Source: a virus (Duplodnaviria > Heunggongvirae > Uroviricota > Caudoviricetes). Taken from it: a DNA stretch of 64,000 bases. The stretch is from IMG/VR virus record IMGVR_UViG_2576861193_000002; one strand, given 5' to 3'. Every line of letters begins with the position of its first letter. Within the stretch, counting starts at the first letter, position 1. Below the pieces are notes generated by a model. The model saw only the letters and a list, made by a program, of their open reading frames with translations. It ran no database searches and was not told the DNA's origin. The translations under genes were made by a program, and so were the position numbers. Shown piece by piece: positions 1 to 63,099 of the stretch.

Positions 1-69
1 AGCACCTCAAAAACACCATCATACACTAAATCAGTAAGTTGGCAGCATCACCATCGCGCCTGAGGCACA

Positions 70-1164
70 TTAAGCGTCGGAGAGATCATCTTCATCACTC
101 CTTACTCTGGCATCAACCACATTAATATTGATCGCCACAGGCTGGGGATGTTCATTATCTTCCACCGTTTCGATCTCTTTGCGCAGCTTCTGGTTTTCCA
201 TTCTGCGCCGTTCAATTTCCAGTTCCTGTAGCCGTTTATCTGCACATAAAGCCCCGCCAGCAGAAAACAAACGCAACAATTCACGCCGGGCGGCAGCCTT
301 ATCCTCCAGCAGGATCTCAACGCCGAATTTTCCGAATTTTGCCCCTGCATATAATTGCCGCGCATCCCCATCAAGCAGAGTGGTATCAGCCATATAAAGC
401 TGTCCCGTTCCCTCACCGCAGCACTTCGGGCAGTCCGGATTGGGTATGGCGTTATCAACAAAGCCGAGGCCTCCATATTCCGGTTCGGGTTTGCCATCTC
501 TGGAAGCCTGCGCCGCTGCCTTGTCGAATTCTGCTATATCGCGCCACTGGTAGAGATGATTCTCGCCCCAGCAATAACGGCAGTTAACACGGCGAAATTG
601 TGCAAGCTGATTGGGGTCGGCCAGGACAATAGCCATCAACTGACTCACTAGTAAATCCAGGTCTGCGGTATAGCGTTTCTGGTACTGATTGCGGAAGTAG
701 CTGATAGCGCGAAAAACCCTGGCATTTCTAAGCATACGACTGGCGTTGCTGTTAGCTGTCGCACCTTGCCCCTCATAACCGGCTAGTCGGTACGCCTCTG
801 TCGGCTTTTTACCCTGAGCAACAAGCATCGCAAACTTAGCCTGCTGGTCAGAAATGCCGAATTCATCGGGACAGAACGAAAATTCCTCCGCGTCGCCCTC
901 ATTCAGGCCCGCATCGAATACTGGCTTTTTTTCCTGAGATTTTTCGTTCCGCTTTTGTGCAGTCTGCGCAGATTTTTTCTGCGCACTTTTTTGCGCAGTT
1001 TTGCACATTTCTGTCTGCGCATTTTTCGGAGTTTTTTTGATGTAACGACGGGCTGTTGCGTAATTCAGTCCCCTTGCTTCACACCATGCCACCGGAGACA
1101 TACCGGAGCGGGTGTATTCAGCAATATACTCCTGCTGCAACGCCCCCCAGTCCGGTCTGCTCAT
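70..1164 (-). CDS. putative terminase small subunit / DNA-packaging protein (N-terminal HTH, Cys cluster, C-terminal coiled coil)
   Basis: 364 aa ORF; position downstream of lysis genes and trkG in the late operon; HTH-like N-terminus; CPKCCGEG motif. Confidence 0.45.
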   Translation of the reverse strand: MSRPDWGALQQEYIAEYTRSGMSPVAWCEARGLNYATARRYIKKTPKNAQTEMCKTAQKSAQKKSAQTAQKRNEKSQEKKPVFDAGLNEGDAEEFSFCPDEFGISDQQAKFAMLVAQGKKPTEAYRLAGYEGQGATANSNASRMLRNARVFRAISYFRNQYQKRYTADLDLLVSQLMAIVLADPNQLAQFRRVNCRYCWGENHLYQWRDIAEFDKAAAQASRDGKPEPEYGGLGFVDNAIPNPDCPKCCGEGTGQLYMADTTLLDGDARQLYAGAKFGKFGVEILLEDKAAARRELLRLFSAGGALCADKRLQELEIERRRMENQKLRKEIETVEDNEHPQPVAININVVDARVRSDEDDLSDA

Positions 1165-1167
1165 CAG

Positions 1168-1419
1168 TTAGTCCTGATTTTTATCCACCCTGAGTAGTTC
1201 GCGCAGAGCAAAGGCATCCCCTTTTCTGGCAAGCTTAAACAATGCCGCTCGTAACTCGGCTTCACCTTTCGCTCTGCCCTTACGGATGGCCGCATAAAAA
1301 TCTGTCATTGCTTCCCGATTTTCTTTCAGTCGGTTCAGATCAACATCCAGAACGTCAGCGATTTGTTGTGCAGTCATCCGGCACGCTGCCAGAGACTCGA
1401 CTTTCGAATACGGAATCAT
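1168..1419 (-). CDS. hypothetical phage protein, possible HTH
   Basis: 83 aa ORF upstream of putative small terminase; start uncertain (overlaps upstream ORF). Confidence 0.35.
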   Translation of the reverse strand: MIPYSKVESLAACRMTAQQIADVLDVDLNRLKENREAMTDFYAAIRKGRAKGEAELRAALFKLARKGDAFALRELLRVDKNQD

Positions 1420-2308
1420 TTGTCACCCCCATTGATATGCAGGGTGTCTTCTTCCTGTATTTTTCGTGAAGGATTTTTACTGCAGCGTTGTTCCAGGTGA
1501 CCTGATGGTGAATGCGTTTATGGCTGGCACCCATCAGTGAGATTTTTACGCACGACGGCGCATACATGACGGAGTAAAAACTTTTAACGTAGGTTCCGGA
1601 ATCCAGATACAGCTCGGTCATTCCGCCGCTGTTTTTCTGCGTCTGTTTCTGCCCTAACTGGACAGCACCGATCGTCATAAACAATTCACCACAGCGACCG
1701 AGATTCGTGTACGTATTCACATCCTCGTTAATGCGCCCCATGAATGAGAACGGTCGATCAACCGAACAGATAAAGCTGTTCATTGCCTTGCGTTTCACCC
1801 ACGAAGCATGGCCGCCATTGTCACCAAGAAAATCCCCGCCCTGCGACATAGCGATGGAAAGAGCAGGTATTGATTCGTAGTACGCCAGCATTTCAGAAAG
1901 GATCGCATCCAGTTTCCTTATCGGAAAATAGGCCTGGTCATAGTTGCGATCCACCCGAAACTGGAACTCGTGATAATCATCATCGAGCTGAATGAAGTAT
2001 TTACACCCGACCAGTTTTGCCAGGTCGAAACAGGCATTACGGGCGTAAAAAATTGAGCGGCGGTCACAGAAATTATCGGCTTCGTCAAAACGACTGGCGA
2101 TATCGGCTTTGGAAAACACCAGCACCTGTTCACCAAATTCAGCCATGTACTGATTTCGTGTCTTATCTTCATCATCAACAACGATAAAAATTTTCCCGGT
2201 ATAGCCAGCACGACGCAACGTCCGGTAAGTCAGAACTTTGTCCGGTCGCCCGTGAGTCAGAATAAAGGCGCAAAAATCATCACGCATATTCCTCCTCCTC
2301 ACCACCAT
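1355..2308 (-). CDS. uncharacterized phage protein (acidic DDED / LDDD motifs; possible nucleotide-sugar transferase-like fold)
   Basis: 317 aa ORF translationally coupled to ParB-like gene; not recognised as a known family. Confidence 0.5.
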   Translation of the reverse strand: MVVRRRNMRDDFCAFILTHGRPDKVLTYRTLRRAGYTGKIFIVVDDEDKTRNQYMAEFGEQVLVFSKADIASRFDEADNFCDRRSIFYARNACFDLAKLVGCKYFIQLDDDYHEFQFRVDRNYDQAYFPIRKLDAILSEMLAYYESIPALSIAMSQGGDFLGDNGGHASWVKRKAMNSFICSVDRPFSFMGRINEDVNTYTNLGRCGELFMTIGAVQLGQKQTQKNSGGMTELYLDSGTYVKSFYSVMYAPSCVKISLMGASHKRIHHQVTWNNAAVKILHEKYRKKTPCISMGVTNDSVFESRVSGSVPDDCTTNR

Positions 2309-3071
2309 GCATGATCTCCACCATGCGCTGCGTCATCCGGACAAATCCATTTTCAATAGCCTGCTGATAATCAATGATCACCAGCGCCGACTCCTCGAAA
2401 AAACACTGAATTTCAGAGGGGGCGTGAGCGTAATAGTCCGCAATTCTGCTGAAATTAAACACCGTGTGACGTTCTGCCGCACACAGGAGGAATTTCTCAA
2501 TATCAGGCTCAAGGGACGCCGAACGTATCCGGCTGATCAGCTCCTGAGTTTTCGTATCGTCGTACAGTTCACTGATATCCGGTTTACCGCCCGACGGCTC
2601 ATAAACAGGCGTATCAATTTTCGTCGTATACGGCTCCTCCTCATTTCCTGTACCGGGCAAAACATCCGTCAACAGTTCATCAATTTCTGTCGGGATGAAG
2701 CCTGTCAGGGAGACATCAAAATCAGCATTGATTAGGTCCGACAGCTCCATCCGCAACAGATCTTCATCCCAGCCAGCATTCATCGGCAGGCGATTATCTG
2801 CCAGGCGGTACGCCTTTTTCTGCTCATCCGTCAGGCCAGACAGAACAATGACCGGAACAGAATCCATTTTGAGCATTTCAGCCGCCATAACACGACCGTG
2901 ACCCGCAATAATTTCGCCCTTTTCGTCAATCAGCACCGGATTAGTCCAGCCGAATTGCTTAATACTTTCTACCAGTTGTGCCACCTGCTCAGGGCTGTGC
3001 GTCCTGGCGTTGTGCGCATACGGTGACAATTCTTGTAATGGGCGATAGACTATCTTTAATTTCTCGCTCAT
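2280..3071 (-). CDS. ParB-like nuclease domain protein
   Basis: 263 aa; N-terminal ParB/Srx-like motif (…EIIAGHGRVMAA…); phage late region between trkG and terminase. Confidence 0.7.
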   Translation of the reverse strand: MSEKLKIVYRPLQELSPYAHNARTHSPEQVAQLVESIKQFGWTNPVLIDEKGEIIAGHGRVMAAEMLKMDSVPVIVLSGLTDEQKKAYRLADNRLPMNAGWDEDLLRMELSDLINADFDVSLTGFIPTEIDELLTDVLPGTGNEEEPYTTKIDTPVYEPSGGKPDISELYDDTKTQELISRIRSASLEPDIEKFLLCAAERHTVFNFSRIADYYAHAPSEIQCFFEESALVIIDYQQAIENGFVRMTQRMVEIMHGGEEEEYA

Positions 3072-3208
3072 ACAGCCTTGCTTTATGAATAAAACGCACC
3101 CCAGCAGCCAGTGCTACTGGGGACGGAGGGGTTGCTGGTAAAGTTAGGTATTGGATCAATGAGTGAGTCAACATAATATTAAACTCACAATTATAAATCA
3201 GCCATATA

Positions 3209-4666
3209 TTAGGAGCGCCAAAAAAAACCTGAAAACAATATAATAACAGGATAAATTTCAAGGCGACCAAGAATCATAGCTATGCACATTAAACATTTTG
3301 CAATGTCATTAAGCACTCCGAATGACGATACAGTAGCCCCAAAACCTAATCCCATATTATTAATACATGCAGCCACTGTTGCAAATGATGTAAGAAAATC
3401 ATATCCCATACCATTTAACACCAGTATAAAAAACACCGTGAAGAGAGTATAAAGAAAAAAGAAACTCCATACAGACCTCATTACACGATCTGTAACTATC
3501 TTCCCTCCTACATTTACACTCAACAACGCTCTGGGATGAGAAAGCTGATTTATCTCGTGTTTGCTTTGTTTGAAAAGTATAAGAAATCGAAGTGACTTAA
3601 TTCCACCACAAGTTGAACCTATACATCCCCCAAAGAAACTTGACAACAGCAAAAACACTATCGTGTGCGTGGGCCAACTTGCATAATCCTGCGTAGCTAA
3701 ACCATTATCAGTGAGCATGGAGCTGGCAAGAAAAAACGAATGAATAAAACTTCCATGCAAGTCATACATACCTATATGCCAGACCTGGAAAGAGGTAACA
3801 ATGATCACCCCTAAGGCTATTAACAGAAAGAAACGAAGTTCAATATCTCTGATTAAAGGTTTTATCGTTTTCCTGCTAATAACAATATACCAAAGAGTGA
3901 AGTTGAAAGCCGATAGCAGGGAAAAAGAACCAGCCACCAGCTCAACCAAATAGTTATTAAAATATCCGATACTCTCGCTATGAGTTGAGAAACCACCAAG
4001 CGAAACTGTGGAAATCCCGTGACAAATAGCATCAAACAAAGGCATTCCTGCAAGTCTATAACAGACAATACAAGCAATACCTAATAAAGAATAAGTTATC
4101 CACAGTGTCCGTGACGTATCGGCCAGGCGGGGAGTGAGTTTGTCATCCTTAAATGGCCCCGGCATTTCTGACTGATAAAGCTTTGCACCACCAATACCCA
4201 ATAATGGCAATACAGCAACCGCCAGAACAATAACTCCTAAACCACCTATAAAATTTAACTGTGACCGATAGTACAAATATGCCCGAGGTAATGAACTAAC
4301 ATCATCAATTACAGTTGCTCCTGTTGTTGTTATTCCAGAAACCCCTTCAAACAGAGCATCAATGAACGTTAAATTAAGTTCTGAGTCAATCCATAAAGGG
4401 AATGCACTAATAACAGAAAACAAAATCCAAAACATTACAATTATAATAAACCCATCACGGGTACGTAATTGAATGCCAGATTTCTTAGTTGTATACCACG
4501 CTCCGCCACCAATGCAAAAAAATATAACGAAAGTTATAAAGAAAACGAACAGGCTTTTTTCTTTATAAAACAATGCTACAACCATTGGTGGCAACATTGA
4601 AAGACTATAGAGCCAAACCAGGAACCCACACATATGAGTAACAACTCTTACATGAGATGTATTCAT
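3209..4666 (-). CDS. trkG: Trk potassium uptake protein TrkG (prophage-borne TrkH paralog)
   Basis: Polytopic membrane protein; N-terminus MNTSHVRVVTHMCGFLVWLYSL recognised as TrkG; AT-rich gene inside Rac, as in E. coli K-12. Confidence 0.9.
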   Translation of the reverse strand: MNTSHVRVVTHMCGFLVWLYSLSMLPPMVVALFYKEKSLFVFFITFVIFFCIGGGAWYTTKKSGIQLRTRDGFIIIVMFWILFSVISAFPLWIDSELNLTFIDALFEGVSGITTTGATVIDDVSSLPRAYLYYRSQLNFIGGLGVIVLAVAVLPLLGIGGAKLYQSEMPGPFKDDKLTPRLADTSRTLWITYSLLGIACIVCYRLAGMPLFDAICHGISTVSLGGFSTHSESIGYFNNYLVELVAGSFSLLSAFNFTLWYIVISRKTIKPLIRDIELRFFLLIALGVIIVTSFQVWHIGMYDLHGSFIHSFFLASSMLTDNGLATQDYASWPTHTIVFLLLSSFFGGCIGSTCGGIKSLRFLILFKQSKHEINQLSHPRALLSVNVGGKIVTDRVMRSVWSFFFLYTLFTVFFILVLNGMGYDFLTSFATVAACINNMGLGFGATVSSFGVLNDIAKCLMCIAMILGRLEIYPVIILFSGFFWRS

Positions 4667-36059: not shown

Positions 36060-39000
36060 TTACCAAACACCAATAATAATTTTACCACCACTAGGAAGAT
36101 TTACCGTAATGCCGTTATTGTTAATAATTACCCGTCCGTCACTATTGCGTACATCGAAATTTTGATTGCCTTTAACAATGACGTTACCCCTTACGGTGAC
36201 TTCGTTGAATTGCGCCCATCCATCTTTGTTAATCATCCAACCTTTTGAGTCTTGAACAAATACGGTTGACTGGATTTGCTGCGCTATTTTTGCAGTACCG
36301 ATAGATCCGTCTTTAATAAACGCTTCTTTAACATACATTGCATCATTGGTGGTATAGAAAGGTGATGTGTATGTGCCGTTTGCTGCGGTCATCAACACGA
36401 AGCGGTCAACGAGGAAAATACACTGCGATTGAACGTTAGTGCCGCTACCAGTCAGCCCAAGAGACATACCTGTTGCATACTTCATGCCGTTGTTGTCGGT
36501 TGCCAGCTTGATAGAGTACGTCGCATCAACATTACCTTTGAAGTCGGTTAACGCTTTCGACGTCGTCTGTATCGCTGTTGTGTTCCCGTTAACGGTCACT
36601 GTTAGCTGATCGATTTTGCTTGATAATGCCTCGTCAGCCGTCGCCATTGCCTGCGACCATTCTGTAATATTTGAGTTTACAGAATCGAAAGACGCTGAGA
36701 TCTGGCCAAATTTTTCCGCGCTTGATGCTTCATGCGTAGAAAGTGCCGTTGACACCTCTGATACCTTCGAATTAATCGTACTGGTAAGCGATGAGTTAAG
36801 ACTACTGATTGCGTCAGTACGGGCCTTCGTTTCGTCTGCAATAGCCTTATCAATACGGGTTACGTTACTTGTCACCTTACTATCAAGCGTGGAAATTGAT
36901 GCGTTCACTCCGCTGATAGCCTGGGCGCGGGCGCTTGATTCGTCGGCAATAGCCTGATCCAGCCTGCTAACTTCAGATTCAGTGTTGTTTTCAAGCGTGC
37001 TAATACTTGCATTCACTCCACTGATAGCTTCAGTTCTTGCGCTTGTCTCATCTGCAATGGCTTTATCAAGACGGCTTATTCTTGAATCCGTTTTCTTGTC
37101 TAGCGCTGACACTGAGGCATTTACTCCGCTGATAGCCTCGCTGCGTGCGCTGGTTTCGTCTGCAATTGCCCTATCAAGGCGGTTGACGCTTGCTTCCGTC
37201 TTCCTATCAAGATCGGTGATCGATGCGTTTACGGAGCTAATGGCTTCCGCTGTGGCTTTTTTCTCCTCTGCTATAACATTGTCAATACGGTCAATTTGCG
37301 CGTTGGTTTCTTTGCGGCCTTTCTTGTATTGGGCCGTGAGAGTAACCCGCGTGTTGGTTTGAGCAATAGAGTTGTTGATAAGTGCGATTGAGGCGTTTTG
37401 CAGACTTGCTTTAGTCTGATTTATTTCGTCGCTGTTTTTGTCAACGTTATTTTCAACAGTGCCAAGCTCCGCGCTGATGCCCGATATTGCCTGTGCACGG
37501 GCGCTTGATTCATCTGCAATTGCCTGATCAAGACGTTTAACGCTGGCGTTTGTGCTATTTTCAAGCGTTGTTAAATCAGCTTTAACCTCTGTTATTGCGG
37601 CGCTTCTTGCCTGCGTTTCATCTGATATTGCTTTATCAAGACGGGAAACGCTCGCGTCAGTTTTGCTTTCAAGATTGCTTATTGAGGCGTTAACGTCGCT
37701 AATGGCCTGGGTGCGGGCACTGGTTTCATCTGCAACCGCTTGATCCAGTCTGCTTACTTCTGATTCTGTATTGTTTTCAAGTGTGCTAATACTTGCATTC
37801 ACGCTACTGATAGCGTCTGTGCGTGCTTTTGTTTCGTCTGCTATCGCTTTATCAATGCGGTTAATGTTGCTTGTAACTTTGCCGTCAAGCGTGGAAATTG
37901 AGGTATTCACGCCGCTGATGGCTTCAGTTCTTGCACTGGTTTCATCTGCAATTGCCTGATCCAAGCGTTTTACGCTGGCGTCAGTTTTCTTGTCTAGCGT
38001 TGAAATACTTGCATTTACGTCGCTGATGGCTTGAGTCCGCGCGCTAGTCTCGTCAGCGATTGCTTGATCAAGGCGGTTAACGCTTGCGTCAGTTTTCTTA
38101 TCAAGATTGCTTATTGAAGCGTTTACACCGTTAATAGCTTCAGCGCGGGCGCTGGCCTCGTCAGCTACTGCGCGCTGCACGTTAGAAATCTGACCTTTAA
38201 GGTTGGAGTCCATCGTATTCATTTCTGCTGTGATGGTTTCCAGTGATTCCGCTGTCGCTTTTTTCTCTTCAGCGATAACGTTGTCAATGCGGTCGATTTC
38301 CGCTTTAGTCTCTGTCCTGCCTTTCTTGTACTGAGCGGTAAGAGTTACGCGCGTGTTTGTCTGTGCAAGTGAGTTATTAATAAGAGCAAGTGACGCGTTT
38401 TGCAGGCTTGCTTTTGCTTGCGCCAGTTCGCTGCCAACTTTTTCGCTGGACACTTCTAATGAGTCAATTCTTGCCTCATGCTGTCCAATATCATCGGCGT
38501 TTTCCTCAACCTTTTTATAAAGATCTTCCGTTTCTTTTTTCAGTGTGTCCGTATCAGCTTTTATGGCCCCTGTTTCTGTGATTAGGCCGTCCGTATCAAT
38601 CCTCAAATCGTCAGTGATGTTTGTCAGGTTGTCCGTGTCAACCCTCAAATCGTCAGTGATGTTTGTCAGGTTATCAGTTGCAGTTTTGAGGTTGTCGGTA
38701 GCAGTTTTAAGGTCATTTGTAGCGCTTTCGATAAGATCAGCGCGGTCGCCAAGATCTTTAATGTCGCTAATCATCCCCTTAAACTGTTCTGAATTAATTA
38801 CGTCTTTTGTGACGTAGTCGCTAATTTCATCGAAGTTTTCAGTTGGTTTGCCTGATGCCTCAACGAAATCTGACACGCCAAAAGCGTTACGTGTACGAAT
38901 ATAAACGTAATAGGTGTGCCCCGTGTTCATGCCGCCAAAAGTCCACTGATAGCCGCGCCCGGTAAACTGCGCTGATGTGGTTACTTTTGATGGATCTGTG

Positions 39001-41243
39001 ATCTGGTTTTCACCTGCGAAGTAAAATTCGTATGCTGTATCAGTGGTCAGGGTTGTTTTGCTAATCGGATACACTGTTGCCTGGAAAACACCAGGAACCC
39101 AATTAACGCCGACCGGGGCCGCTGGTGCACCAATAACCAGGTCCACAATACTTTCCGCACCCTTCATGCCAGTGTCATTACGCCCGCGAATACCAAGCGT
39201 GTAGCTGCCAGTATCAAGGCCATAAAACTCATAGCGGTAATTCGTTGTTTCATAAGTTGCCACCACGCGGCCTTCGGCGTTATATACGCGTATTTCAAAG
39301 GTCAGGCGATGCGTTGTCGTCTGTGTTTCCCATGTAGCGCGACATTGAACAGTTTCAGAACCAACATTTAACACCTTCAGGTTTTCAATGTTCGGCACGC
39401 GGAAGTGATTAAGCGTGTCGTTGTTTACCTCAAAGATTGCGCCTTCATCGACTACAGCCTGTTTATGTGGGTCATGCTGTGCTGCCTCGATGGTGTACAC
39501 GCTGTTGTTTTCAGTTTCTGCTACGCTGATGATTCGGCACAGGACGGGTTTTGCTGCGTCAGTTGATACAGCAAAAACAGTTCCGTTACGAATCCACGCG
39601 GGGGCGGCTGCAAGGGTGATATTGTTTCCGTTAACTCCGGTGATCTGGTGTTTTTTAAACTTGCCATCACTATCAAGTAAACTAATGGTATCGCCTGCGG
39701 CGATGTATTCCGAATCAACCTTATCTACCGTTATCACCTTGCCATTATTCGCCACGATACGACCGCCAAAACGAGCGCCTGCGCGGTTATTGTCGAGTAT
39801 CTCGATAATATCCCCAGGGGTGAAGTGAATTGCGTCGCGGGCCATTTTAAACGTGAATTTTGATGGTTCGCGTTTTGCTGTTTCTATCAGCCACTTGCCA
39901 GCGCGGTATGCCTGCCCGCGTGAAGTGCAACCGAAAGCCTCTAGCGTGGTTTCGTTATAACCATCGCGGGCGATCAATTCATCATCTGCCACGTATTCTT
40001 TTGATTGCTCCCAACCGTTTTCCGGGTCAGTCCATGACACGATAACTGCGTTGTAAGATTCTGCACGGGCAATACTTGAACGAGTAAACGCGCCATCAAC
40101 AACGTTAGCATTCGTGATGGTAGCAATTGGATCTTGCGGTGCATCAATCATCACCGTAAGGCGCTGCCCATCCCATAACGCGATACCACGGAACATGCCT
40201 GCGATATTGTCCAGTAAGTCGCGGGCGCTCATTTGCTCAGTTATGTAAGCATTAAGCGTCATGCGAGGTTCAAAGCCGCCGTAACCGTCGTTTACCAACT
40301 GGTCGCAGTATTGAGAAAGCGTATATAATGCGCCGTCGTCAACATCAATGTAACCAGCATGACGTGCAAGCCCGAAACGTTCATTTTTAACCAGATACCG
40401 GAATAGCCACGCAGGGTTATTGGTGTACGCTTTTTTAAATCCACCTAGCCATAAACCTGAATACGTGCGCGTTTCAGGGTTATAGTTGTCAGGCACATCA
40501 ACAATCAGTCCGCGCAGATGATAGGTGCGGGTAGGTGTATCAGTATACTGGTCATGGTCAATTACAGCACCAGCTACAGCGGTATGAGGGTAAGACAGGT
40601 TATCGTCGATTATTTCGCTGTAGCTACTCCACCGCGTATCATTACGAAGAAGATCGCTTTTGCTGTCTGCTGTTACGCGACGAACGCGAATATCAAACGG
40701 CTTTTCATCCGGCGCTTTGATAATGTGAGCTTCCAGATATTCACCGCTTTGTTTACCGGGACCAATGTGTATACCTTTAACCGGCGACCACGTAGAAGAT
40801 GATGACGGTTTAACATCAACCACCAACATAACGGATGTATTATATTGATTGCCCTCATCATCTGACTGAACAAGAGCATCAACGCCAAGATTTAACCTTA
40901 CGCGGGTAACGTTTGGATCTGAAACAGTCCTTATTATTGGCGTGTCGTGAGTTACCTTTGCGTTGACAATAACGGTTGATTCGATGGCATTAAAACCATT
41001 AATCGGCGATTGGTCAGCCGTGCCGTTGCGCCAGGCTATACTAATCCCAGGAATTGATGTGTTTCCGTTTGCGTCAGTGATAGGCGTGTCATTAAGCATT
41101 ACGTTGTTTAATGGCGCATTCTGGTTAACTACTCCAAAAATTGGTCCTTCACTTAGAATATCTAAAACCCGATAAAATTGTTTATGAAACAAATTATCAT
41201 TAAGCAAAGTTGGTGTTTTTGCTTTACCGCCGCCACTAGACAT
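36060..41243 (-). CDS. J-like host specificity / central tail fibre protein with long coiled-coil repeat insert
   Basis: 1727 aa; follows L-K-I; middle third is tandem ~35-aa repeats (…DETSARTQAISDVNASISTLDKKTDASVKRLDQAIA…). Confidence 0.85.
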   Translation of the reverse strand: MSSGGGKAKTPTLLNDNLFHKQFYRVLDILSEGPIFGVVNQNAPLNNVMLNDTPITDANGNTSIPGISIAWRNGTADQSPINGFNAIESTVIVNAKVTHDTPIIRTVSDPNVTRVRLNLGVDALVQSDDEGNQYNTSVMLVVDVKPSSSSTWSPVKGIHIGPGKQSGEYLEAHIIKAPDEKPFDIRVRRVTADSKSDLLRNDTRWSSYSEIIDDNLSYPHTAVAGAVIDHDQYTDTPTRTYHLRGLIVDVPDNYNPETRTYSGLWLGGFKKAYTNNPAWLFRYLVKNERFGLARHAGYIDVDDGALYTLSQYCDQLVNDGYGGFEPRMTLNAYITEQMSARDLLDNIAGMFRGIALWDGQRLTVMIDAPQDPIATITNANVVDGAFTRSSIARAESYNAVIVSWTDPENGWEQSKEYVADDELIARDGYNETTLEAFGCTSRGQAYRAGKWLIETAKREPSKFTFKMARDAIHFTPGDIIEILDNNRAGARFGGRIVANNGKVITVDKVDSEYIAAGDTISLLDSDGKFKKHQITGVNGNNITLAAAPAWIRNGTVFAVSTDAAKPVLCRIISVAETENNSVYTIEAAQHDPHKQAVVDEGAIFEVNNDTLNHFRVPNIENLKVLNVGSETVQCRATWETQTTTHRLTFEIRVYNAEGRVVATYETTNYRYEFYGLDTGSYTLGIRGRNDTGMKGAESIVDLVIGAPAAPVGVNWVPGVFQATVYPISKTTLTTDTAYEFYFAGENQITDPSKVTTSAQFTGRGYQWTFGGMNTGHTYYVYIRTRNAFGVSDFVEASGKPTENFDEISDYVTKDVINSEQFKGMISDIKDLGDRADLIESATNDLKTATDNLKTATDNLTNITDDLRVDTDNLTNITDDLRIDTDGLITETGAIKADTDTLKKETEDLYKKVEENADDIGQHEARIDSLEVSSEKVGSELAQAKASLQNASLALINNSLAQTNTRVTLTAQYKKGRTETKAEIDRIDNVIAEEKKATAESLETITAEMNTMDSNLKGQISNVQRAVADEASARAEAINGVNASISNLDKKTDASVNRLDQAIADETSARTQAISDVNASISTLDKKTDASVKRLDQAIADETSARTEAISGVNTSISTLDGKVTSNINRIDKAIADETKARTDAISSVNASISTLENNTESEVSRLDQAVADETSARTQAISDVNASISNLESKTDASVSRLDKAISDETQARSAAITEVKADLTTLENSTNASVKRLDQAIADESSARAQAISGISAELGTVENNVDKNSDEINQTKASLQNASIALINNSIAQTNTRVTLTAQYKKGRKETNAQIDRIDNVIAEEKKATAEAISSVNASITDLDRKTEASVNRLDRAIADETSARSEAISGVNASVSALDKKTDSRISRLDKAIADETSARTEAISGVNASISTLENNTESEVSRLDQAIADESSARAQAISGVNASISTLDSKVTSNVTRIDKAIADETKARTDAISSLNSSLTSTINSKVSEVSTALSTHEASSAEKFGQISASFDSVNSNITEWSQAMATADEALSSKIDQLTVTVNGNTTAIQTTSKALTDFKGNVDATYSIKLATDNNGMKYATGMSLGLTGSGTNVQSQCIFLVDRFVLMTAANGTYTSPFYTTNDAMYVKEAFIKDGSIGTAKIAQQIQSTVFVQDSKGWMINKDGWAQFNEVTVRGNVIVKGNQNFDVRNSDGRVIINNNGITVNLPSGGKIIIGVW

Positions 41244-41802
41244 ATAGACCCCCTGTTTCGTGTAATTTCGTGTATCCTGCGCCAGCTTTATTTAGCTCTT
41301 CAATCATGAATGACCGCCACGCGACGGCGGCATTAATAGCCATTTCAAGTCCACCGCACGCTATAACGCTAAATGATTTACTAACTCTTTTGTCGTTATC
41401 AGCGGTGATACGTGCTCTAATAGATCTCCCTTCTGCGTGCCAACATATCCCAAATGGCAATCCGCTCTCCCTTGTCGCGCGACCTATGGTCATATTTCTG
41501 GCGTTACCTTTTTTATCTGTTACGCGTATGTTATTGAATTTATTATTAAGCCCATTACCATCAATGTGATCGATGATCTCACTGCGTTTTAATTTTCTGC
41601 CACTGCATAATTCGTAAACAATCCGGTGAGCATAATAGCGACGGCCCTTCCATGTGATTTTCCAGTACTTATTGCCGCTTTTTGCCGCTACTATTTTTCC
41701 TGCCGCATCGCCAGTCCTCGCCGTTCTGCTGTTAGCGGTGACTTTCCACCTTAAACATGAAGGAGAATCTTCATCATAAACAAACAATTCAGACCAGTTC
41801 AC
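41236..41802 (-). CDS. HNH homing endonuclease (HNH_3-type)
   Basis: 188 aa; motif IDHIDGNGLNNKFNNIR; inserted between tail genes I and J. Confidence 0.75.
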   Translation of the reverse strand: MNWSELFVYDEDSPSCLRWKVTANSRTARTGDAAGKIVAAKSGNKYWKITWKGRRYYAHRIVYELCSGRKLKRSEIIDHIDGNGLNNKFNNIRVTDKKGNARNMTIGRATRESGLPFGICWHAEGRSIRARITADNDKRVSKSFSVIACGGLEMAINAAVAWRSFMIEELNKAGAGYTKLHETGGLYV

Positions 41803-41814
41803 TGTAACCCCCTA

Positions 41815-42345
41815 TTAACTTACAACGTCTAAGGCGTCTCTGTTGTTACTTGTATCTATGCCTAACGATCCGACGTTTGAACCTATTTTCATTTCACCCA
41901 ACAGGATCGGCACTGGCCTACCCTGGCCTACCTTGTTTTCAATGCTGGTGTAGGTGTTGTTAGATATGGTGTTATCTTGTGCGCTTTCTGCTGATGTCTT
42001 TATCTTCATATTGCGAGACATGAAGATCGAGAACGCAACACTAACAACCGAAACACCGATCAAAATCCAGCCTACAACGCCAATTCCTGCAATACCACCT
42101 TCCACCACTGGCGCAACAATGACTGTAGTCCCATCCGGGTATTTACTGTTAACCGCTGCTGGCGCGGTCTTTTCGTCATAATCTTTCCCGGCAATTCGTA
42201 AGCGCAATGGTGTGTTTAAAAACGCCTTCTTGAACTCCTGATTCTGTGCGGTCAATAAGCCAAGTCCCTGCGCTGGCGTATCAACGTTTAAACACACCTT
42301 GCCGTAATATCTTCGAAGATTGCCCGTAAATCTAAATTTGAGCAT
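41815..42345 (-). CDS. tail assembly protein I-like
   Basis: 176 aa; position between K and J; hydrophobic central segment. Confidence 0.7.
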   Translation of the reverse strand: MLKFRFTGNLRRYYGKVCLNVDTPAQGLGLLTAQNQEFKKAFLNTPLRLRIAGKDYDEKTAPAAVNSKYPDGTTVIVAPVVEGGIAGIGVVGWILIGVSVVSVAFSIFMSRNMKIKTSAESAQDNTISNNTYTSIENKVGQGRPVPILLGEMKIGSNVGSLGIDTSNNRDALDVVS

Positions 42346-43019
42346 TTGTCAGATCTCCATATTGAATGCGTTTGTCTAACATAAGCGGGCCGCATTTGCT
42401 CGCGGCGGCTTAATAGTCCGGCATTGTCATGATGCAAAACGGTGTTATCTCCCAGGTAAATCATCGCGTGACATGGGTCAGCACCCTTAAACGGCTGACG
42501 GATAATCACGTCACCCGGCTGAATGCTTTGCGCGTCAACCATGAAAAACCCGTTCAATGGCAGGTTTTTTATATACAGGTTTTCCCCACGCAGCCACCAC
42601 CCATCGTGGCGTTCAAAGTCCGGTAGATCCACGCCGCAAAGGTGATAGGCGTCACGGAAAAGCGAGTAGCAGTCTGTTTTACCGTGCTCAAATTTACGAC
42701 CTAACAGGTGAGCTACAGGGCGGAACTTTCTTACCCTGCCACCGGAACATAAAAACCACGGCAGGCCGGAAATAACTTGCTGTTGTCGATCCCGTGCTGA
42801 CAATACTAATGAATTGTCAGTATGGGAGTGAAAAACTGCAGTTATAACGCCTAATTCGTCAGCTTTGATATAATCGTCAGGCGAGATTTTAAAGCTGTTG
42901 TGAGGCGTTTCAGACACGTTTAAGCATGGGTAAAAATAATCGTTATCTATCACCAGCCCGCACACCTCCTCTTCCTGGTGGGCTGCTGCATAGCGAATCA
43001 TTTTATCTTCAAGTGCCAT
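42288..43019 (-). CDS. tail assembly protein K-like (JAB/MPN + NlpC/P60-type)
   Basis: Start set at internal Met MALEDKMIRYAAAH; EVCGLV motif; C-terminal Cys/His region. Confidence 0.7.
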   Translation of the reverse strand: MALEDKMIRYAAAHQEEEVCGLVIDNDYFYPCLNVSETPHNSFKISPDDYIKADELGVITAVFHSHTDNSLVLSARDRQQQVISGLPWFLCSGGRVRKFRPVAHLLGRKFEHGKTDCYSLFRDAYHLCGVDLPDFERHDGWWLRGENLYIKNLPLNGFFMVDAQSIQPGDVIIRQPFKGADPCHAMIYLGDNTVLHHDNAGLLSRREQMRPAYVRQTHSIWRSDKCSNLDLRAIFEDITARCV

Positions 43020-43021
43020 AA

Positions 43022-43726
43022 TTAACCCACCTTGCTCGATCCAGGAAAACATGAAATTGGTAACGGATTCGGGCGCGGAAAACGCAAACGGCAACCGCTT
43101 AGGCGGTGGCTGCATTTGTCCATCCTTGGATCGTTGGTTGATTCGTCTTTATCGGTAGCTACAGGGCCGCCACTATATCCGCAACCGTCGCCGCGATACT
43201 GCCACTGGCAAACGTCAGCGAGAATTGTGCGCCCAGGGATAACAGCTTTATCAGCATCAATTGGCGTTGACAGTTCATATTGCACCTGGTCGGCTGTTTC
43301 TTCGCTCATCGCCTCAACGACGTAAAAAGATACAGCCTCAATAGATGGATCTGCATCTGGGTTGCCGTTGGGGAAGTTGATAGCGTCCAGGTATTTTACT
43401 TCCACCTGGCGGCGCGTAACCTTCATTCCTCGAAGGTCGTTAAAATCGTTATTCATCCCAGTGATTAGCCCGCCAATGTTGGCTACTACCATTTGGGGGC
43501 GTGAGTAAACGCCTTCGTTTTTCATTTCGAAGCCAGTCGCCTCGATTGGGTAGCTGTTGTAGGCCACTCCCTTCCAGATAACCGGGCCGTAATAGCCATT
43601 CGCGCCGGAATGGAAGCGGATAATCTCGCCACCCAGGGGCGTGAGGTCTAATTCAAACAAGTCAATTACCGCACCGACTCCGGCATCCACGGAATCAATA
43701 ATCATTTCTGTAGGTATGCTGCGCAT
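43022..43726 (-). CDS. minor tail protein L-like
   Basis: 234 aa; synteny M-L-K-I-J; C-terminal Cys cluster. Confidence 0.75.
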   Translation of the reverse strand: MRSIPTEMIIDSVDAGVGAVIDLFELDLTPLGGEIIRFHSGANGYYGPVIWKGVAYNSYPIEATGFEMKNEGVYSRPQMVVANIGGLITGMNNDFNDLRGMKVTRRQVEVKYLDAINFPNGNPDADPSIEAVSFYVVEAMSEETADQVQYELSTPIDADKAVIPGRTILADVCQWQYRGDGCGYSGGPVATDKDESTNDPRMDKCSHRLSGCRLRFPRPNPLPISCFPGSSKVG

Positions 43727-43743
43727 TTTATCACCTTGTAATT

Positions 43744-43807
43744 TGTGATCGACGTCACGCTAAATCATACCAAAACGGTTGATAGCGCTTTTTACAATAT
43801 GTATATT
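43744..43807 (+). promoter_or_regulatory. sigma70-type promoter with upstream CRP-like site for the moron cassette
   Basis: TGTGA-tcgacg-TCACg (43744-43759) centred ~62 bp upstream of predicted TSS; -35 TTGATA (43779-84), 17-bp spacer, -10 TATATT (43802-07). Confidence 0.5.
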
Positions 43808-43853
43808 GTACTCAAAAGGAAGCATGGTTAACAAAATGGCGCGGAGGTGTGAG

Positions 43854-44009
43854 ATGGTTGATAAGGTGTGGAGGTTGAAGGTATTCCTGGCGGATGGCAG
43901 GGAAATGACTGTAGCTCTGTATAAGGATGAAGGCGAGGCACTTACTGACGCGCTTTTACTCGCTGAAGACGAACGCGTTTTGGGGTACAGGATCGAACCC
44001 GTCAAATGA
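43854..44009 (+). CDS. hypothetical small protein (moron cassette gene 1)
   Basis: SD ggagg + ATG at 43854 (51 aa); the longer track ORF starts at 43779 inside the promoter. Confidence 0.45.
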   Translation: MVDKVWRLKVFLADGREMTVALYKDEGEALTDALLLAEDERVLGYRIEPVK

Positions 44010-44021
44010 GGGTTTAACAAA

Positions 44022-44372
44022 ATGCAAAAATACAGCTTAGATGTGTGGACTGATAAATGTGAATGGGAATGCATGGGCCTATTTGACACATATGCTGCGG
44101 CGCGTGATGAAGGTCGCGAATTACTTCTCTGTTGGTCTAACGCTCGTGATTTTGATATTACTCCGGTCCAAGTACCGGATAAGGTGGAAGAGATGAACCC
44201 TAAAGATATTGATGTTAGCTTCAATGTTAACTTTGCTGACTCTATGGATCAGTCTTGCCCTGGTGAAATACACGCAAAAGGTTTCCCCGCTGACGATCCA
44301 GAAGCAAAACGCGAATACGAAAAAGCGGCAAAAGATTTCTGTATCGACAATTTGTCTGCGTTCGATAAATAA
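44022..44372 (+). CDS. hypothetical acidic protein (moron cassette gene 2)
   Basis: 116 aa, rich in D/E, 5 Cys; no recognised family. Confidence 0.5.
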   Translation: MQKYSLDVWTDKCEWECMGLFDTYAAARDEGRELLLCWSNARDFDITPVQVPDKVEEMNPKDIDVSFNVNFADSMDQSCPGEIHAKGFPADDPEAKREYEKAAKDFCIDNLSAFDK

Positions 44373-44381
44373 GGCGGCAAC

Positions 44382-44630
44382 ATGGGGCGGCGCAATCACG
44401 GTGATTATGTGTACACGTTGAAACAGGCCGCCCGCCTCATCGGTTATCATGAGCACGAATTTATTGATTTGCTGATCGAGCGCGGGATTTTGTATCAGGT
44501 TTGTTTAACGCTGTACCCGAAAGCTAAGTACCTACAAGAAAAGTTATTCATCATTATGACGGATGAAAACCAGGTCAATCACTCATTCGTCACTGATAAA
44601 GGCGTTAATTATCTGCGTGATAACTTATAG
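44382..44630 (+). CDS. hypothetical protein with HTH-like segment (moron cassette gene 3)
   Basis: 82 aa; …YTLKQAARLIGYHEHEFIDLLIERGIL…. Confidence 0.5.
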   Translation: MGRRNHGDYVYTLKQAARLIGYHEHEFIDLLIERGILYQVCLTLYPKAKYLQEKLFIIMTDENQVNHSFVTDKGVNYLRDNL

Positions 44631-61436: not shown

Positions 61437-61907
61437 TTATTCTTTGCGTAAGCACTGCGTTTTGATGTAGTCCTGTAGCCCTACGATCTGAGCGTCTTTC
61501 GTTTTTAGTTGTTCTCTGAGGGATAGATAAGCCGATTCAGCGTCGGGAGTGAGTCTACAGGCGGCTCTATCAATGCTGCTGGCGGTTCCGGAGGAGTCTG
61601 ACACTCGCACGGGTATTGCGTTGACGCGCAGCCTGATAGTGCCGTTATCAATGCCAGTGCGCAGATCGGCAATGTCAGATCTGATAGCTTTAATCTCATC
61701 GTGATACCTCTTATCAAGTTTTGACAGTTCGGCGTTTCGCTCCTTCATCTGCTGAATAGTGTTACTTGCTGTTTTCAGTGCGCCTTGCGTGGTCGTTAAT
61801 TCTTCCTGTAACCTTGTCGCCTCACTCTGGTAATGGCATGTCACGGCTGTAAGACTGGCAATGATGCAAACAACAGCGGCGATAATTAACGCCTTCACCT
61901 TGTCCAT
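61437..61907 (-). CDS. Rz-like i-spanin
   Basis: N-terminal TM + coiled coil periplasmic domain; embedded Rz1. Confidence 0.75.
   Translation of the reverse strand: MDKVKALIIAAVVCIIASLTAVTCHYQSEATRLQEELTTTQGALKTASNTIQQMKERNAELSKLDKRYHDEIKAIRSDIADLRTGIDNGTIRLRVNAIPVRVSDSSGTASSIDRAACRLTPDAESAYLSLREQLKTKDAQIVGLQDYIKTQCLRKE
61505..61699 (-). CDS. Rz1-like o-spanin lipoprotein (embedded)
   Basis: Lipobox LSGC; proline-rich (PPEPPAALIEPP). Confidence 0.7.
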   Translation of the reverse strand: MRLKLSDLTLPICALALITALSGCASTQYPCECQTPPEPPAALIEPPVDSLPTLNRLIYPSENN

Positions 61908-62416
61908 GTTCCCCCCTCGCAACCCATCGAAGGTGCATATTCACCATAGAAAAAGTTTTCCGCCAAAATGCGAGCCGCGATCGCTTCGTCCAGTGAATAA
62001 AACAAGCCAATACATATGCGTTTACCGTCATTGTCGGTAATCCTTACCCGCCATTTAGGCTTGCTCCGCTCTGTTTTGTGGTAGGTAACACCCCTAAATC
62101 CAGATGATGTATGAGGGGTAAGGTGTTTTTTATTCATGCTGTTATGCGTATCGTCTACTTCTCGCAAGTTTATAATCCTGTTATCGTGTTTTATCCCATT
62201 GATATGATCGATATCCTTTTCAGGCCATACTCCATAATGGAAAAACCACGCAAGGCGATGCGCTTTATATCTTCCTATGTATATATATCCGCTTTTATGC
62301 TTAAACCCTGCCACACTACCAGCCTTAATCCTCCCGTGAGGACTAATCTTATAGGTAAAAACACCTGTTTCTGGATCATAGTGCAGCTTTCGTTTTAGCT
62401 CATCATCACTTTTCAT
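61895..62416 (-). CDS. HNH homing endonuclease (HNH_3-type), paralog of 41236-41802
   Basis: 173 aa; motif IDHINGIKHDNRIINLR; inserted between endolysin and Rz. Confidence 0.75.
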   Translation of the reverse strand: MKSDDELKRKLHYDPETGVFTYKISPHGRIKAGSVAGFKHKSGYIYIGRYKAHRLAWFFHYGVWPEKDIDHINGIKHDNRIINLREVDDTHNSMNKKHLTPHTSSGFRGVTYHKTERSKPKWRVRITDNDGKRICIGLFYSLDEAIAARILAENFFYGEYAPSMGCEGGTWTR

Positions 62417-62897
62417 TAGTTACGCCCCATTCACAAACAGCGCGTTCAATATCGCGTCGATTTTTTAATCCCTGTATATATCGCCCATTATCATATACCC
62501 AGCGATCCAACTCCTTACACGCCCCCATAAAGTCGCCTTTATTTATTTTTTTTAACAAGGTTGATTTTTTGAAAGCGTCAACCCCGATATTGTATGAAAA
62601 GCTAATTAGCGCGGCGCGTTGGTAGTCATTCATGTCAACTTTTACATAACGATCGACCGCCTTTTTGTAAACGGCTAAGTGTTTTTGTAAAAGTCTCTCG
62701 CATTCATCAGGTGTGTATCTCTTACCAGGGACAACATCAGGGCCGGTTATGCCATTGCATACAGTTAGCACGCCTCCGGTATCGTAATAAGGCTCGTAAG
62801 CCGTACCCTCAACCCATACAAGCAAAACAGATGCAATGGCTAACGTTCCACCAGCCGCCGCCTTAGTTAGTCGGTTTTTCAGCGATTGGCTAATCAT
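62406..62897 (-). CDS. endolysin (lysozyme-like, N-terminal signal-anchor)
   Basis: 163 aa from MISQSLKN; hydrophobic N-terminus then lysozyme-like core resembling the prophage-1 endolysin. Confidence 0.8.
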   Translation of the reverse strand: MISQSLKNRLTKAAAGGTLAIASVLLVWVEGTAYEPYYDTGGVLTVCNGITGPDVVPGKRYTPDECERLLQKHLAVYKKAVDRYVKVDMNDYQRAALISFSYNIGVDAFKKSTLLKKINKGDFMGACKELDRWVYDNGRYIQGLKNRRDIERAVCEWGVTNEK

Positions 62898-62898
62898 G

Positions 62899-63099
62899 TT
62901 ACTTATTCCCCATTCGCGCGTCGTGTTCCTCTTGCGCTCGCTTGTTCTCCTGTGATTTGAAATAATAGTTAACGGCAAATGTGCCAATGGTTGATAAGAT
63001 ACCCACAAAGACGGCAACGTCATTGATGGTTATCGCGCCGAAAAAAGCAGTTACGGCCCCAGTCACATACGCACACGCCGCCCGTATTCTGTCGAACAT
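62899..63099 (-). CDS. holin
   Basis: 66 aa, two TM segments, charged C-terminus; SD ggagg; stop overlaps endolysin start. Confidence 0.7.
   Translation of the reverse strand: MFDRIRAACAYVTGAVTAFFGAITINDVAVFVGILSTIGTFAVNYYFKSQENKRAQEEHDARMGNK

What the first reader, a model, noticed from the sequence alone, without database searches (positions are those of the whole stretch)
41236..41802. HNH homing endonuclease inserted between tail genes I and J
An HNH_3-type endonuclease (IDHIDGNGLNN…) lies in the I-J junction with overlapping stop/start on both sides. This is a free-standing homing endonuclease insertion into the tail module and is paralogous to the second copy at 61895-62416.
Basis: partly seen in the sequence, partly recalled or inferred. 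Interest (0 to 1): 0.5.

Follow-up and report, generated by a model that had tools for sequence, protein, structure and literature searches.

The report
Mobile HNH nuclease gene between tail genes
A small selfish nuclease gene (an HNH-AP2 homing endonuclease) is inserted exactly between two tail genes of an E. coli prophage, and comparison with sister phages shows the clean empty site and the footprint of its transfer; it is a good natural example of a well-known kind of element, not a new kind.

Summary
A 188-codon ORF (41236-41802, minus strand, GTG start) lies between tail genes I (41815-42345) and J (36060-41243). It has an HNH_3 nuclease domain whose catalytic residues align with those of I-HmuI, and a C-terminal AP2-fold DNA-binding domain. 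One detail is wrong: it overlaps J by 8 nt (ATGTCTAG), but a 12-nt ribosome-binding spacer separates it from I.

The homing interpretation is well supported by comparative evidence:
- The gene is in mEp021 and mEp515. It is precisely absent from mEp044, mEp013, mEp010 and mEp554, and from all 20 matching prophages in 5,426 complete E. coli genomes.
- The first 117 nt of J travel with it. They carry 22 fixed, mostly synonymous differences from empty-site alleles.
- The window matches mEp021 across the HNH gene and this tract (5 differences in 761 nt). It then switches to the HNH-less mEp044 type at J nt 117-123.
- Homologs of 48% identity or more occupy the same I-J junction in Escherichia, Salmonella, Cronobacter, Atlantibacter and Pseudocitrobacter. 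The Salmonella lineage has its own empty-site relatives (ES18, phage 29485).
- The ORF is under purifying selection.

Cleavage was not tested. The second copy (61895-62416) belongs to the same family at only 28% identity and is a separate insertion. Verdict: new member of a known kind, moderate to low interest.

The parts
41236..41802 (-). Free-standing HNH-AP2 homing endonuclease gene (188 aa, GTG start, TAG stop)
   Evidence: ORF. Pfam HNH_3 E=1.6e-9. 99.5% identical to mEp021 gp78 'putative HNH endonuclease'. pN is far below pS against all clade members, with omega 0.06-0.17 where measurable.
41497..41637 (-). HNH_3 (beta-beta-alpha-metal) nuclease domain, residues 56-102, with D78, H79, N87, N91, N100 and N103
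41293..41469 (-). AP2-fold DNA-binding domain, residues about 112-170 (three strands plus a long helix)
41803..41814 (-). 12-nt spacer TAGGGGGTTACA with the Shine-Dalgarno sequence for the HNH gene; left end of the insert, directly after the I stop codon
   Evidence: Sequence. Alignment with empty sites, where CAGGAGAAAAGCC takes its place.
41127..41243 (-). First 117 nt of J, which travel with the HNH gene (co-converted, recoded tract). It includes ATGTCTAG, which supplies the HNH stop codon
   Evidence: 22 of 40 fixed HNH+/HNH- differences in about 4.1 kb fall at 41127-41226. They are mostly synonymous; the amino-acid changes are Y19F, Y36F and P38V. Identical in the window, mEp021 and mEp515 apart from one base.
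41127..41156 (-). Position corresponding to the proposed (inferred) recognition/cleavage region of empty-site alleles: J nt 88-117, TCAGCGAGGGGCCGATATACGGTCCGGTA in HNH- phages
   Evidence: Densest cluster of differences, with the only recurrent non-synonymous change: codon 36 is Y in 10 of 10 HNH- alleles and F, A or V in the three HNH+ lineages. The linked tract ends here. This is inference only.
41121..41127 (-). Right recombination breakpoint: the window switches from mEp021-like (HNH+) to mEp044-like (HNH-) sequence
   Evidence: 33 of 34 discriminating sites match mEp021 over 41887-41127. About 75 of 79 match mEp044 over 41121-40551.
41887..42016 (-). Interval holding the left recombination breakpoint, inside the 3' third of gene I
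   Evidence: Run of mEp044-type sites ends at 42016 and the run of mEp021-type sites starts at 41887.
41815..42345 (-). Tail assembly protein I (upstream flank); its last 45 nt or so are almost invariant in HNH+ and HNH- phages
36060..41243 (-). Tip attachment / host specificity protein J (downstream flank)
   Evidence: Pfam FNIII-A_GpJ, Phage-tail_3, Ig_J, Ig_J_second, Phage_Tail_Tip.
61895..62416 (-). Second, distantly related HNH_3+AP2 gene, inserted between endolysin and Rz/Rz1
   Evidence: Pfam HNH_3 E=5e-14. 28% identity to the first copy. Absent from that junction in mEp013 and mEp021, and not covered in any of the 7 related phages.

Best explanation
The ORF is a free-standing homing endonuclease gene of the HNH_3 + AP2 class, carried in the late tail operon of an mEp021-type (immunity-I) prophage in an E. 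coli chromosome.

Shown:
- It is an intact, selectively maintained nuclease-plus-DNA-binding protein.
- It is a precise insertion that replaces the 13-14-nt I-J spacer.
- It is sporadic among close relatives.
- It is always linked to a recoded version of the first 117 nt of J.
- In this window the unit made of the last 70-200 nt of I, the HNH gene and J nt 1-117 is essentially identical to mEp021. The rest of J is of the type found in HNH-less mEp044.

Inferred mechanism:
- The protein is made late in infection or after induction, from the tail-operon transcript, using its own Shine-Dalgarno sequence. Its 3' end supplies a new Shine-Dalgarno (GGGGG) and overlaps the J start, so J expression is kept.
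- When an HNH-less relative is in the same cell (a co-infecting phage or a resident prophage), the AP2 domain binds a conserved sequence in the 5' end of its J gene. The best guess is J nt about 88-117.
- The HNH domain nicks or cuts there. I-HmuI-type enzymes are nickases.
- Recombinational repair from the HNH+ genome copies the stretch from the break through J nt 1-117 and the HNH gene into gene I.
- The HNH+ allele is protected from its own enzyme by the substitutions in that tract.
For: Protein:
- HNH_3 at E=1.6e-9.
- D78, H79, N100 and other motif residues are invariant in 22 homologs and align with the I-HmuI catalytic residues.
- pN is far below pS in every pairwise comparison.

Sporadic distribution with a clean empty site:
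- 2 of 6 mEp phages carry the gene and 4 of 6 are empty.
- None of the 20 matching prophage junctions in 5,426 complete E. coli genomes carries it.
- Ten empty alleles share one spacer and a near-identical J 5' end.

Linked recoded tract:
- 22 fixed differences fall within 100 nt, against about 1 per 200-300 nt elsewhere.
- All three E. coli HNH+ lineages (100%, 83% and 71% protein identity) have the same cassette ends, but each has its own recoded J 5' end. All three change J codon 36.

Transfer footprint:
- Window versus mEp021: 5 differences in 761 nt across the unit, but 107 in 1893 upstream and 89 in 576 just downstream.
- Window versus mEp044: 16 in 576 just downstream, but 36 in 203 in the shared part of the unit.

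The same picture appears independently in Salmonella. An HNH+ prophage is 96-100% identical to HNH-less ES18 over L, K, I and J, except for about 100 nt on each side of the insert.

Site fidelity:
- All seven clade members of 48% identity or more that have context lie between I and J, in five genera.
- Relatives at 42% identity or less lie in other places typical of homing endonuclease genes.

The class is established. HNH+AP2 proteins are a recognised homing endonuclease family, and nuclease genes are known to sit at boundaries of genetic exchange in phages (PMC10448857).
Against: - No cleavage, nicking or homing assay exists for this protein or any clade member. The target site and self-immunity are inferred from polymorphism patterns only.
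- These phages are heavily mosaic (many short alternating patches), so ordinary homologous recombination could create breakpoints near the gene without nuclease help.
- The AP2 assignment for the window protein itself is below Pfam's cut-off (17.4 versus 33.3 bits). It rests on homologs and on a predicted fold.
- The low frequency in complete genomes (0 of 20) shows the element is not sweeping. A very efficient homing element might be expected to be commoner.
Confidence: 0.77

Rival explanations
1. The gene is a former homing endonuclease that no longer homes. It is a passenger, perhaps kept for another role such as excluding or damaging competing phages' J genes, or acting as a DNA-binding regulator through AP2. 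Its patchy distribution would then reflect only the general mosaic recombination of these phages.
For: - The background is highly mosaic.
- The gene is rare in complete genomes (0 of 20).
- Domestication of homing endonuclease DNA-binding domains is documented (PMC10448857).
Against: - The catalytic residues are invariant and the ORF is under purifying selection across a clade that has diverged to 48% identity.
- The tight, repeated linkage to a recoded flank has the same boundary in independent lineages, and the same occurs in Salmonella. Passive hitch-hiking does not predict this.
- The unit is nearly identical between phages whose flanks differ by 6-15%.
Confidence: 0.15
2. The HNH protein is a functional accessory of the virion-assembly or packaging machinery, like the HNH proteins that assist terminase at cos sites in HK97-like phages, or a tail-module component.
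For: It lies in the late structural operon and is translationally coupled to J.
Against: - Most close relatives with the same tail genes lack it, and those that were isolated as phages are viable.
- It is not next to the terminase genes.
- It is of the HNH_3+AP2 type, not a terminase-associated HNH type.
- Related proteins lie in unrelated modules such as ribonucleotide reductase and ligase/helicase.
Confidence: 0.03
3. HNH+ is the ancestral state, and the empty sites arose by repeated deletion of the gene rather than by insertion or homing.
For: The clade is old and faithful to the I-J junction across genera.
Against: - Empty alleles are uniform, with the same 13-14-nt spacer. They differ from HNH+ alleles at about 21-24 positions in the adjacent 117 nt of J, which a deletion cannot produce.
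- The HNH unit in the window is nearly identical to mEp021's while the flanks are not, which indicates recent lateral transfer of the unit.
Confidence: 0.05

Closest known systems
I-HmuI (Bacillus phage SPO1 HNH homing endonuclease, PDB 1u3e)
   Different: I-HmuI is encoded inside a group I intron and has a C-terminal helix-turn-helix domain. This protein is free-standing between two genes and has an AP2-fold C-terminal domain. Identity is only 15-21%.
HNH-AP2 homing endonucleases (Magnani et al. 2004; 'IPA-HNH' genes of ICP1-like phages in Barth et al. 2023, PMC10448857)
   Same: They share the two-domain architecture of an N-terminal HNH and a C-terminal AP2. They are free-standing genes next to essential or structural phage genes, located at boundaries of genetic exchange.
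   Different: The ICP1 IPA-HNH domains are too divergent for the Pfam HNH_3 profile, whereas this one matches it directly. This clade lives in temperate siphophage tail operons of Enterobacteriaceae at one fixed junction (I/J). I found no description of this in the papers searched.
T4 free-standing endonucleases SegF, SegG and MobE (intronless homing with co-conversion from a distant cut; Liu et al. 2003, cited in PMC10448857; otherwise my own knowledge)
   Same: The endonuclease gene lies between two conserved genes. The presumed target is in a neighbouring gene of the endonuclease-less relative. Flanking polymorphisms are co-inherited and protect the carrier.
   Different: The Seg proteins are GIY-YIG enzymes of lytic T-even phages. 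Here the enzyme is HNH-AP2 in a temperate prophage, and cleavage and marker exclusion have not been measured.
mEp021 gp78 (AXN54197.1, 'putative HNH endonuclease') and mEp515_105 ('hypothetical protein')
   Same: They encode the same protein, identical apart from the way the GTG start codon is translated, at the same junction.
   Different: Nothing substantive. The group's genome paper (PMC11893012) does not mention HNH or homing.

Membership tests
HNH_3 nuclease family (PF13392; I-HmuI-like) | Match to the family profile above the curated threshold | tested here: met
   37.7 bits against a cut-off of 24.8, E=1.6e-9, covering the full profile 1-46.
HNH_3 nuclease family (PF13392; I-HmuI-like) | Catalytic His (general base) preceded by Asp, and a metal-binding Asn in the beta-beta-alpha-metal motif | tested here: met
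   D78-H79 and N100 align to I-HmuI positions 74-75 and 96. They are invariant in 22 homologs.
HNH_3 nuclease family (PF13392; I-HmuI-like) | Fold resembles a solved member | tested here: met
HNH-AP2 homing endonucleases | C-terminal AP2 DNA-binding domain | tested here: inconclusive
Free-standing homing endonuclease gene (mobile element) | Sporadic presence among otherwise collinear close relatives, with a precise empty site | tested here: met
   2 of 6 mEp phages carry it. 4 of 6 mEp phages and 20 of 20 matching prophages in complete E. coli genomes are empty. Salmonella ES18 and phage 29485 are empty, against HNH+ prophages.
Free-standing homing endonuclease gene (mobile element) | Not inside an intron or intein; its own translation signals | tested here: met
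   A 12-nt spacer with a Shine-Dalgarno sequence lies upstream, and the gene overlaps J by 8 nt. There is no room for a ribozyme, and I and J are intact ORFs.
Free-standing homing endonuclease gene (mobile element) | Co-conversion of flanking markers, with target-site polymorphism in the carrier | tested here: met
   22 fixed differences lie in J nt 18-117. A breakpoint falls at J nt 117-123. The same pattern is seen in two other E. coli lineages and in Salmonella.
Free-standing homing endonuclease gene (mobile element) | Site-specific cleavage or nicking of the endonuclease-less allele, and resistance of the carrier allele | not testable with these tools
   This needs purified protein and DNA substrates.
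Free-standing homing endonuclease gene (mobile element) | Super-Mendelian inheritance in mixed infection that depends on the nuclease | not testable with these tools
   This needs phage crosses.
Terminase-associated HNH (HK97 gp74-like packaging factor) | Adjacent to the terminase/portal genes and conserved in all members of the phage group | tested here: not met
   It is located between tail genes I and J and is absent from most relatives.

The most novel reading that the evidence does not exclude
This HNH-AP2 clade is a long-lived specialist of the I/J boundary of lambda-type tail-tip modules across Enterobacteriaceae.
- By forcing breaks in the conserved 5' end of J, it may act as a recombination driver that reshuffles the host-range gene J between temperate phages and prophages.
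- The swap of the AP2 recognition segment between sub-lineages, together with lineage-specific recoding of the J target (including recurrent replacement of J codon 36), would then record an arms race between nuclease specificity and target immunity.
Probability: 0.25. Interest if true: 0.55.

Novelty: new member of a known kind. Interest (0 to 1): 0.33.

Why it matters
Homing endonucleases have been studied mostly in lytic phages such as T4, T7-like phages, SPO1 and ICP1. This case is in temperate, gut-associated coliphages and prophages, and it comes with ready-made natural pairs of carriers (mEp021, mEp515) and empty-site phages (mEp044, mEp013, mEp010, mEp554) that all grow on E. coli K-12. 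Homing, co-conversion and any effect on exchange of the host-range gene J can therefore be tested directly by crosses. For genome annotation, it explains a length polymorphism and a local divergence spike at the start of J. Otherwise it is an ordinary selfish element.

Tried and rejected
- I looked for a separate promoter or terminator for the HNH gene. The scan gave one weak promoter-like site inside the ORF, fewer than in shuffled sequence, and no minus-strand terminator. The gene is therefore treated as part of the tail operon.
- Base composition: the HNH gene is only slightly lower in G+C (about 43-45%) than its flanks (47-51%). This is not informative on its own.
- The PDB sequence search gave a spurious top hit, a designed Kelch-repeat protein (7ong), through six weak repeated matches of 5.6-5.8 bits each (independent E about 1e+2). 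I disregarded it.
- The Pfam hit to DUF2914 in the second copy is below the cut-off and was ignored.
- The idea that the GCC-box-like GGCGGCGG at J nt 9-17 is the discriminating AP2 target was dropped, because HNH+ alleles retain it.
- The terminase-cofactor role and the 'ancestral gene, repeated deletion' scenario were considered and rejected (see the rival explanations).
- The genome-contig scan found only one further clade member among species representatives (Pseudocitrobacter). The other hits, at 38% identity or less, are other family members. None of them showed I, K or J homologs in the 3-kb flanks.
- The literature search found no description of an HNH gene at an I-J junction.
Full report
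**What is there.**
- The window opens in E. coli chromosomal DNA: the first 4 kb match the Rac prophage region (trkG, ynaK) at 99.9%. It also holds a prophage of the mEp021 / immunity-I group.
- On the minus strand the tail-tip genes run L (43022-43726), K (42288-43115), I (41815-42345), then a 188-codon ORF (41236-41802), then J (36060-41243).
- The ORF starts with GTG, six bases after AGGGGG, in a 12-nt spacer that follows the I stop codon.
- Its TAG stop overlaps the J start in ATGTCTAG.
The statement that start and stop overlap on both sides is right only for the J side.

**What the protein is.**
- Pfam HNH_3 matches residues 56-102 above threshold.
- In an alignment of 22 homologs the residues Y9, H59, D78, H79, N87, N91, N100, N103, G118, A159, R163 and I167 are invariant.
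- The phmmer alignment to I-HmuI (1u3e) puts D78/H79 and N100 on positions 74/75 and 96. From my own knowledge of Shen et al. 2004, these are the catalytic Asp-His and the metal-binding Asn.
- An AlphaFold model built on that alignment is confident (pLDDT 87, pTM 0.74).
- Pfam AP2 is found in 18 of the 22 homologs. The window protein's own C-terminus reaches it only weakly (E=0.0055, below the cut-off).
- The architecture is therefore HNH_3 plus AP2, a recognised homing endonuclease class (PMC10448857, which cites Magnani et al. 2004).
- Nonsynonymous differences are far fewer than synonymous ones in every comparison within the clade: omega is 0.06-0.17 where synonymous sites are not saturated. 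The gene has been kept as a working protein.

**Presence and absence.**
- Phages mEp021 and mEp515 carry the same gene. The protein is identical apart from the way the GTG start is translated, and it is annotated 'putative HNH endonuclease' in mEp021.
- Phages mEp044, mEp013, mEp010 and mEp554 do not carry it.
- In 5,426 complete E. coli genomes, 20 prophages match both flanks and all lack the insert.
- At the empty site the I stop codon is followed by CAGGAGAAAAGCC (13-14 nt) and the J ATG. In carriers this spacer is replaced by 571 nt.

**The footprint of transfer.**
- I compared three carriers and four empty phages over about 4.1 kb. Of the 40 positions fixed between the two groups, 22 lie at 41127-41226, that is J nt 18-117.
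- Most are synonymous. The amino-acid changes are Y19F, Y36F and P38V.
- The gene I side is almost identical in both groups right up to the stop codon.
- Sites that distinguish mEp021 from mEp044 show where the window switches:
  - It follows mEp021 at 33 of 34 sites from 41887 to 41127.
  - It follows mEp044 at about 75 of 79 sites from 41121 to 40551.
- In counts:
  - Window versus mEp021: 5 differences in 761 nt across the unit, 107 in 1893 upstream, and 89 in 576 in the next stretch of J.
  - Window versus mEp044: 16 in 576 in that stretch, but 36 in 203 in the alignable part of the unit.
- The HNH gene, J nt 1-117 and roughly 70-200 nt of I have therefore moved recently as one piece between phages whose surrounding genes differ.

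**Other lineages.**
- The protein search found relatives at 92, 83, 71, 60, 57, 55, 52 and 48% identity.
- Every one whose context I could read lies between I and J:
  - E. coli and gut metagenome contigs for the 83% and 71% lineages.
  - Salmonella.
  - Cronobacter.
  - Atlantibacter.
  - Pseudocitrobacter.
- Relatives at 41% and 38% identity lie in nucleotide-metabolism or replication modules of other phages.
- The three E. coli lineages share the same cassette ends (TAA TAGGGGGTTAC... and ...GGGGGTYTATATGTCTAGTGG). Each has its own set of 21-24 substitutions in J nt 1-117 that are never seen in ten empty alleles. All three replace J codon 36, which is Y in every empty allele, by F, A or V.
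- In Salmonella an HNH+ prophage is 96-100% identical to the HNH-less phage ES18 across L, K, I and J. The exceptions are the last 100 nt or so of I (65-80% identity) and the first 120 nt or so of J (70-83%). Identity returns to 100% at the same place in J.

**Mechanism.**
- The pattern matches intronless homing with obligatory co-conversion between the cut site and the endonuclease gene, as described for T4 SegG (Liu et al. 2003, listed in PMC10448857; details from my own knowledge).
- My inference has three parts:
  - The enzyme recognises the conserved 5' end of J in empty alleles, most likely around nt 88-117. The differences are densest there and the linked tract ends there.
  - Carriers are immune because that stretch is recoded.
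  - Repair from a carrier genome copies everything from the break back through the HNH gene.
- I-HmuI-type enzymes nick one strand, so a nick converted to a break by replication is as likely as a direct double-strand cut.
- No separate promoter or terminator is evident. Expression is presumably late, with the tail operon. The cassette carries a replacement ribosome-binding site for J.
- None of the biochemical steps has been tested.

**The second copy.**
- The gene at 61895-62416 is also HNH_3 plus an AP2-like domain, but it shares only 28% identity with the first.
- It lies between the endolysin (62406-63023) and Rz/Rz1 (61437-61922).
- It is missing from that junction in mEp013 and mEp021, and none of the seven related phages covers it.
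- Upstream of it the endolysin 3' end is a diverged allele. Downstream, Rz is conserved from its start codon.
- It is an independent insertion of the same family, again at a boundary between differently related segments.

**Novelty and score.**
- The gene is already annotated as a putative HNH endonuclease in GenBank, and the class and mechanism are textbook.
- The paper on this phage group does not mention it, and I found no report of an HNH gene at an I-J junction.
- New here are the documented empty sites, the co-converted tract with a mapped breakpoint, and the junction-specific clade across five genera.
- I rate it a new member of a known kind, of moderate to low interest. It has practical value as an easily testable homing system in temperate coliphages.

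Noticed in passing
window 61895-62416 (minus strand), with flanks 61437-63023: A second HNH_3+AP2 gene is inserted between the endolysin and Rz/Rz1 of the lysis cassette. It is absent from that junction in mEp013 and mEp021, and none of the 7 related phages covers it. The endolysin 3' end upstream is a diverged allele, while Rz is conserved from its ATG, so this copy also sits at a mosaic boundary.
   Followed up: partly
window about 41355-41505 (HNH residues about 104-150); L010:3001-3564: Between the window HNH and the 83%-identical lineage (P0002), the AP2 beta-sheet segment is only about 53% identical in DNA (pN 0.34). The N-terminal 100 codons are nearly identical (pN 0.009). The DNA-recognition part seems to have been swapped by recombination, and the two lineages also carry different recoded J 5' ends.
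   Followed up: partly
window 41136-41138 (J codon 36); L007, L010, L013, L024: J codon 36 is Tyr in 10 of 10 empty-site E. coli alleles, but Phe, Ala or Val in the three HNH+ lineages. In Salmonella it is Phe in HNH-less ES18 and Ala in HNH+ prophages. This recurrent non-synonymous change next to the end of the linked tract is a candidate immunity-determining position.
   Followed up: partly
L013:3903-4000 and 4556-4599 (Salmonella prophage); similar in L016 and L018: The Salmonella, Atlantibacter and Cronobacter versions are not tightly packed. There is a hairpin (CCGGAGAGATG...CATCTCTCCGG) in the spacer after I. A terminator-like hairpin plus T-run (GGTCAGCAGAAGCTGGCC TTTTTT) lies between the HNH gene and J, inside a late operon.
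   Followed up: no
window 37009-38165 and 38589-38723 (inside J): The 1727-aa J protein holds a long coiled-coil-like repeat region. There are 108-nt (36-aa) repeats (...ISTLD.KTDASV.RLD.AIADETSAR...) and 42-nt and 21-nt tandem repeats. J length varies widely among the related phages, from 4182 to 5487 nt.
   Followed up: no
window 43779-44630 (plus strand): A block of small ORFs (76, 116 and 82 aa) lies on the opposite strand between tail genes M and L. It looks like a moron-type insertion. Homologous blocks in related loci carry a weak ANT-domain hit.
   Followed up: no
window 1-4000: The start of the window is E. coli chromosome from the Rac prophage region (trkG, ynaK and terminase remnants, 99.9% identity). 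The mEp021-type prophage is therefore integrated near, or follows, a defective prophage region. The attachment site was not mapped.
   Followed up: no
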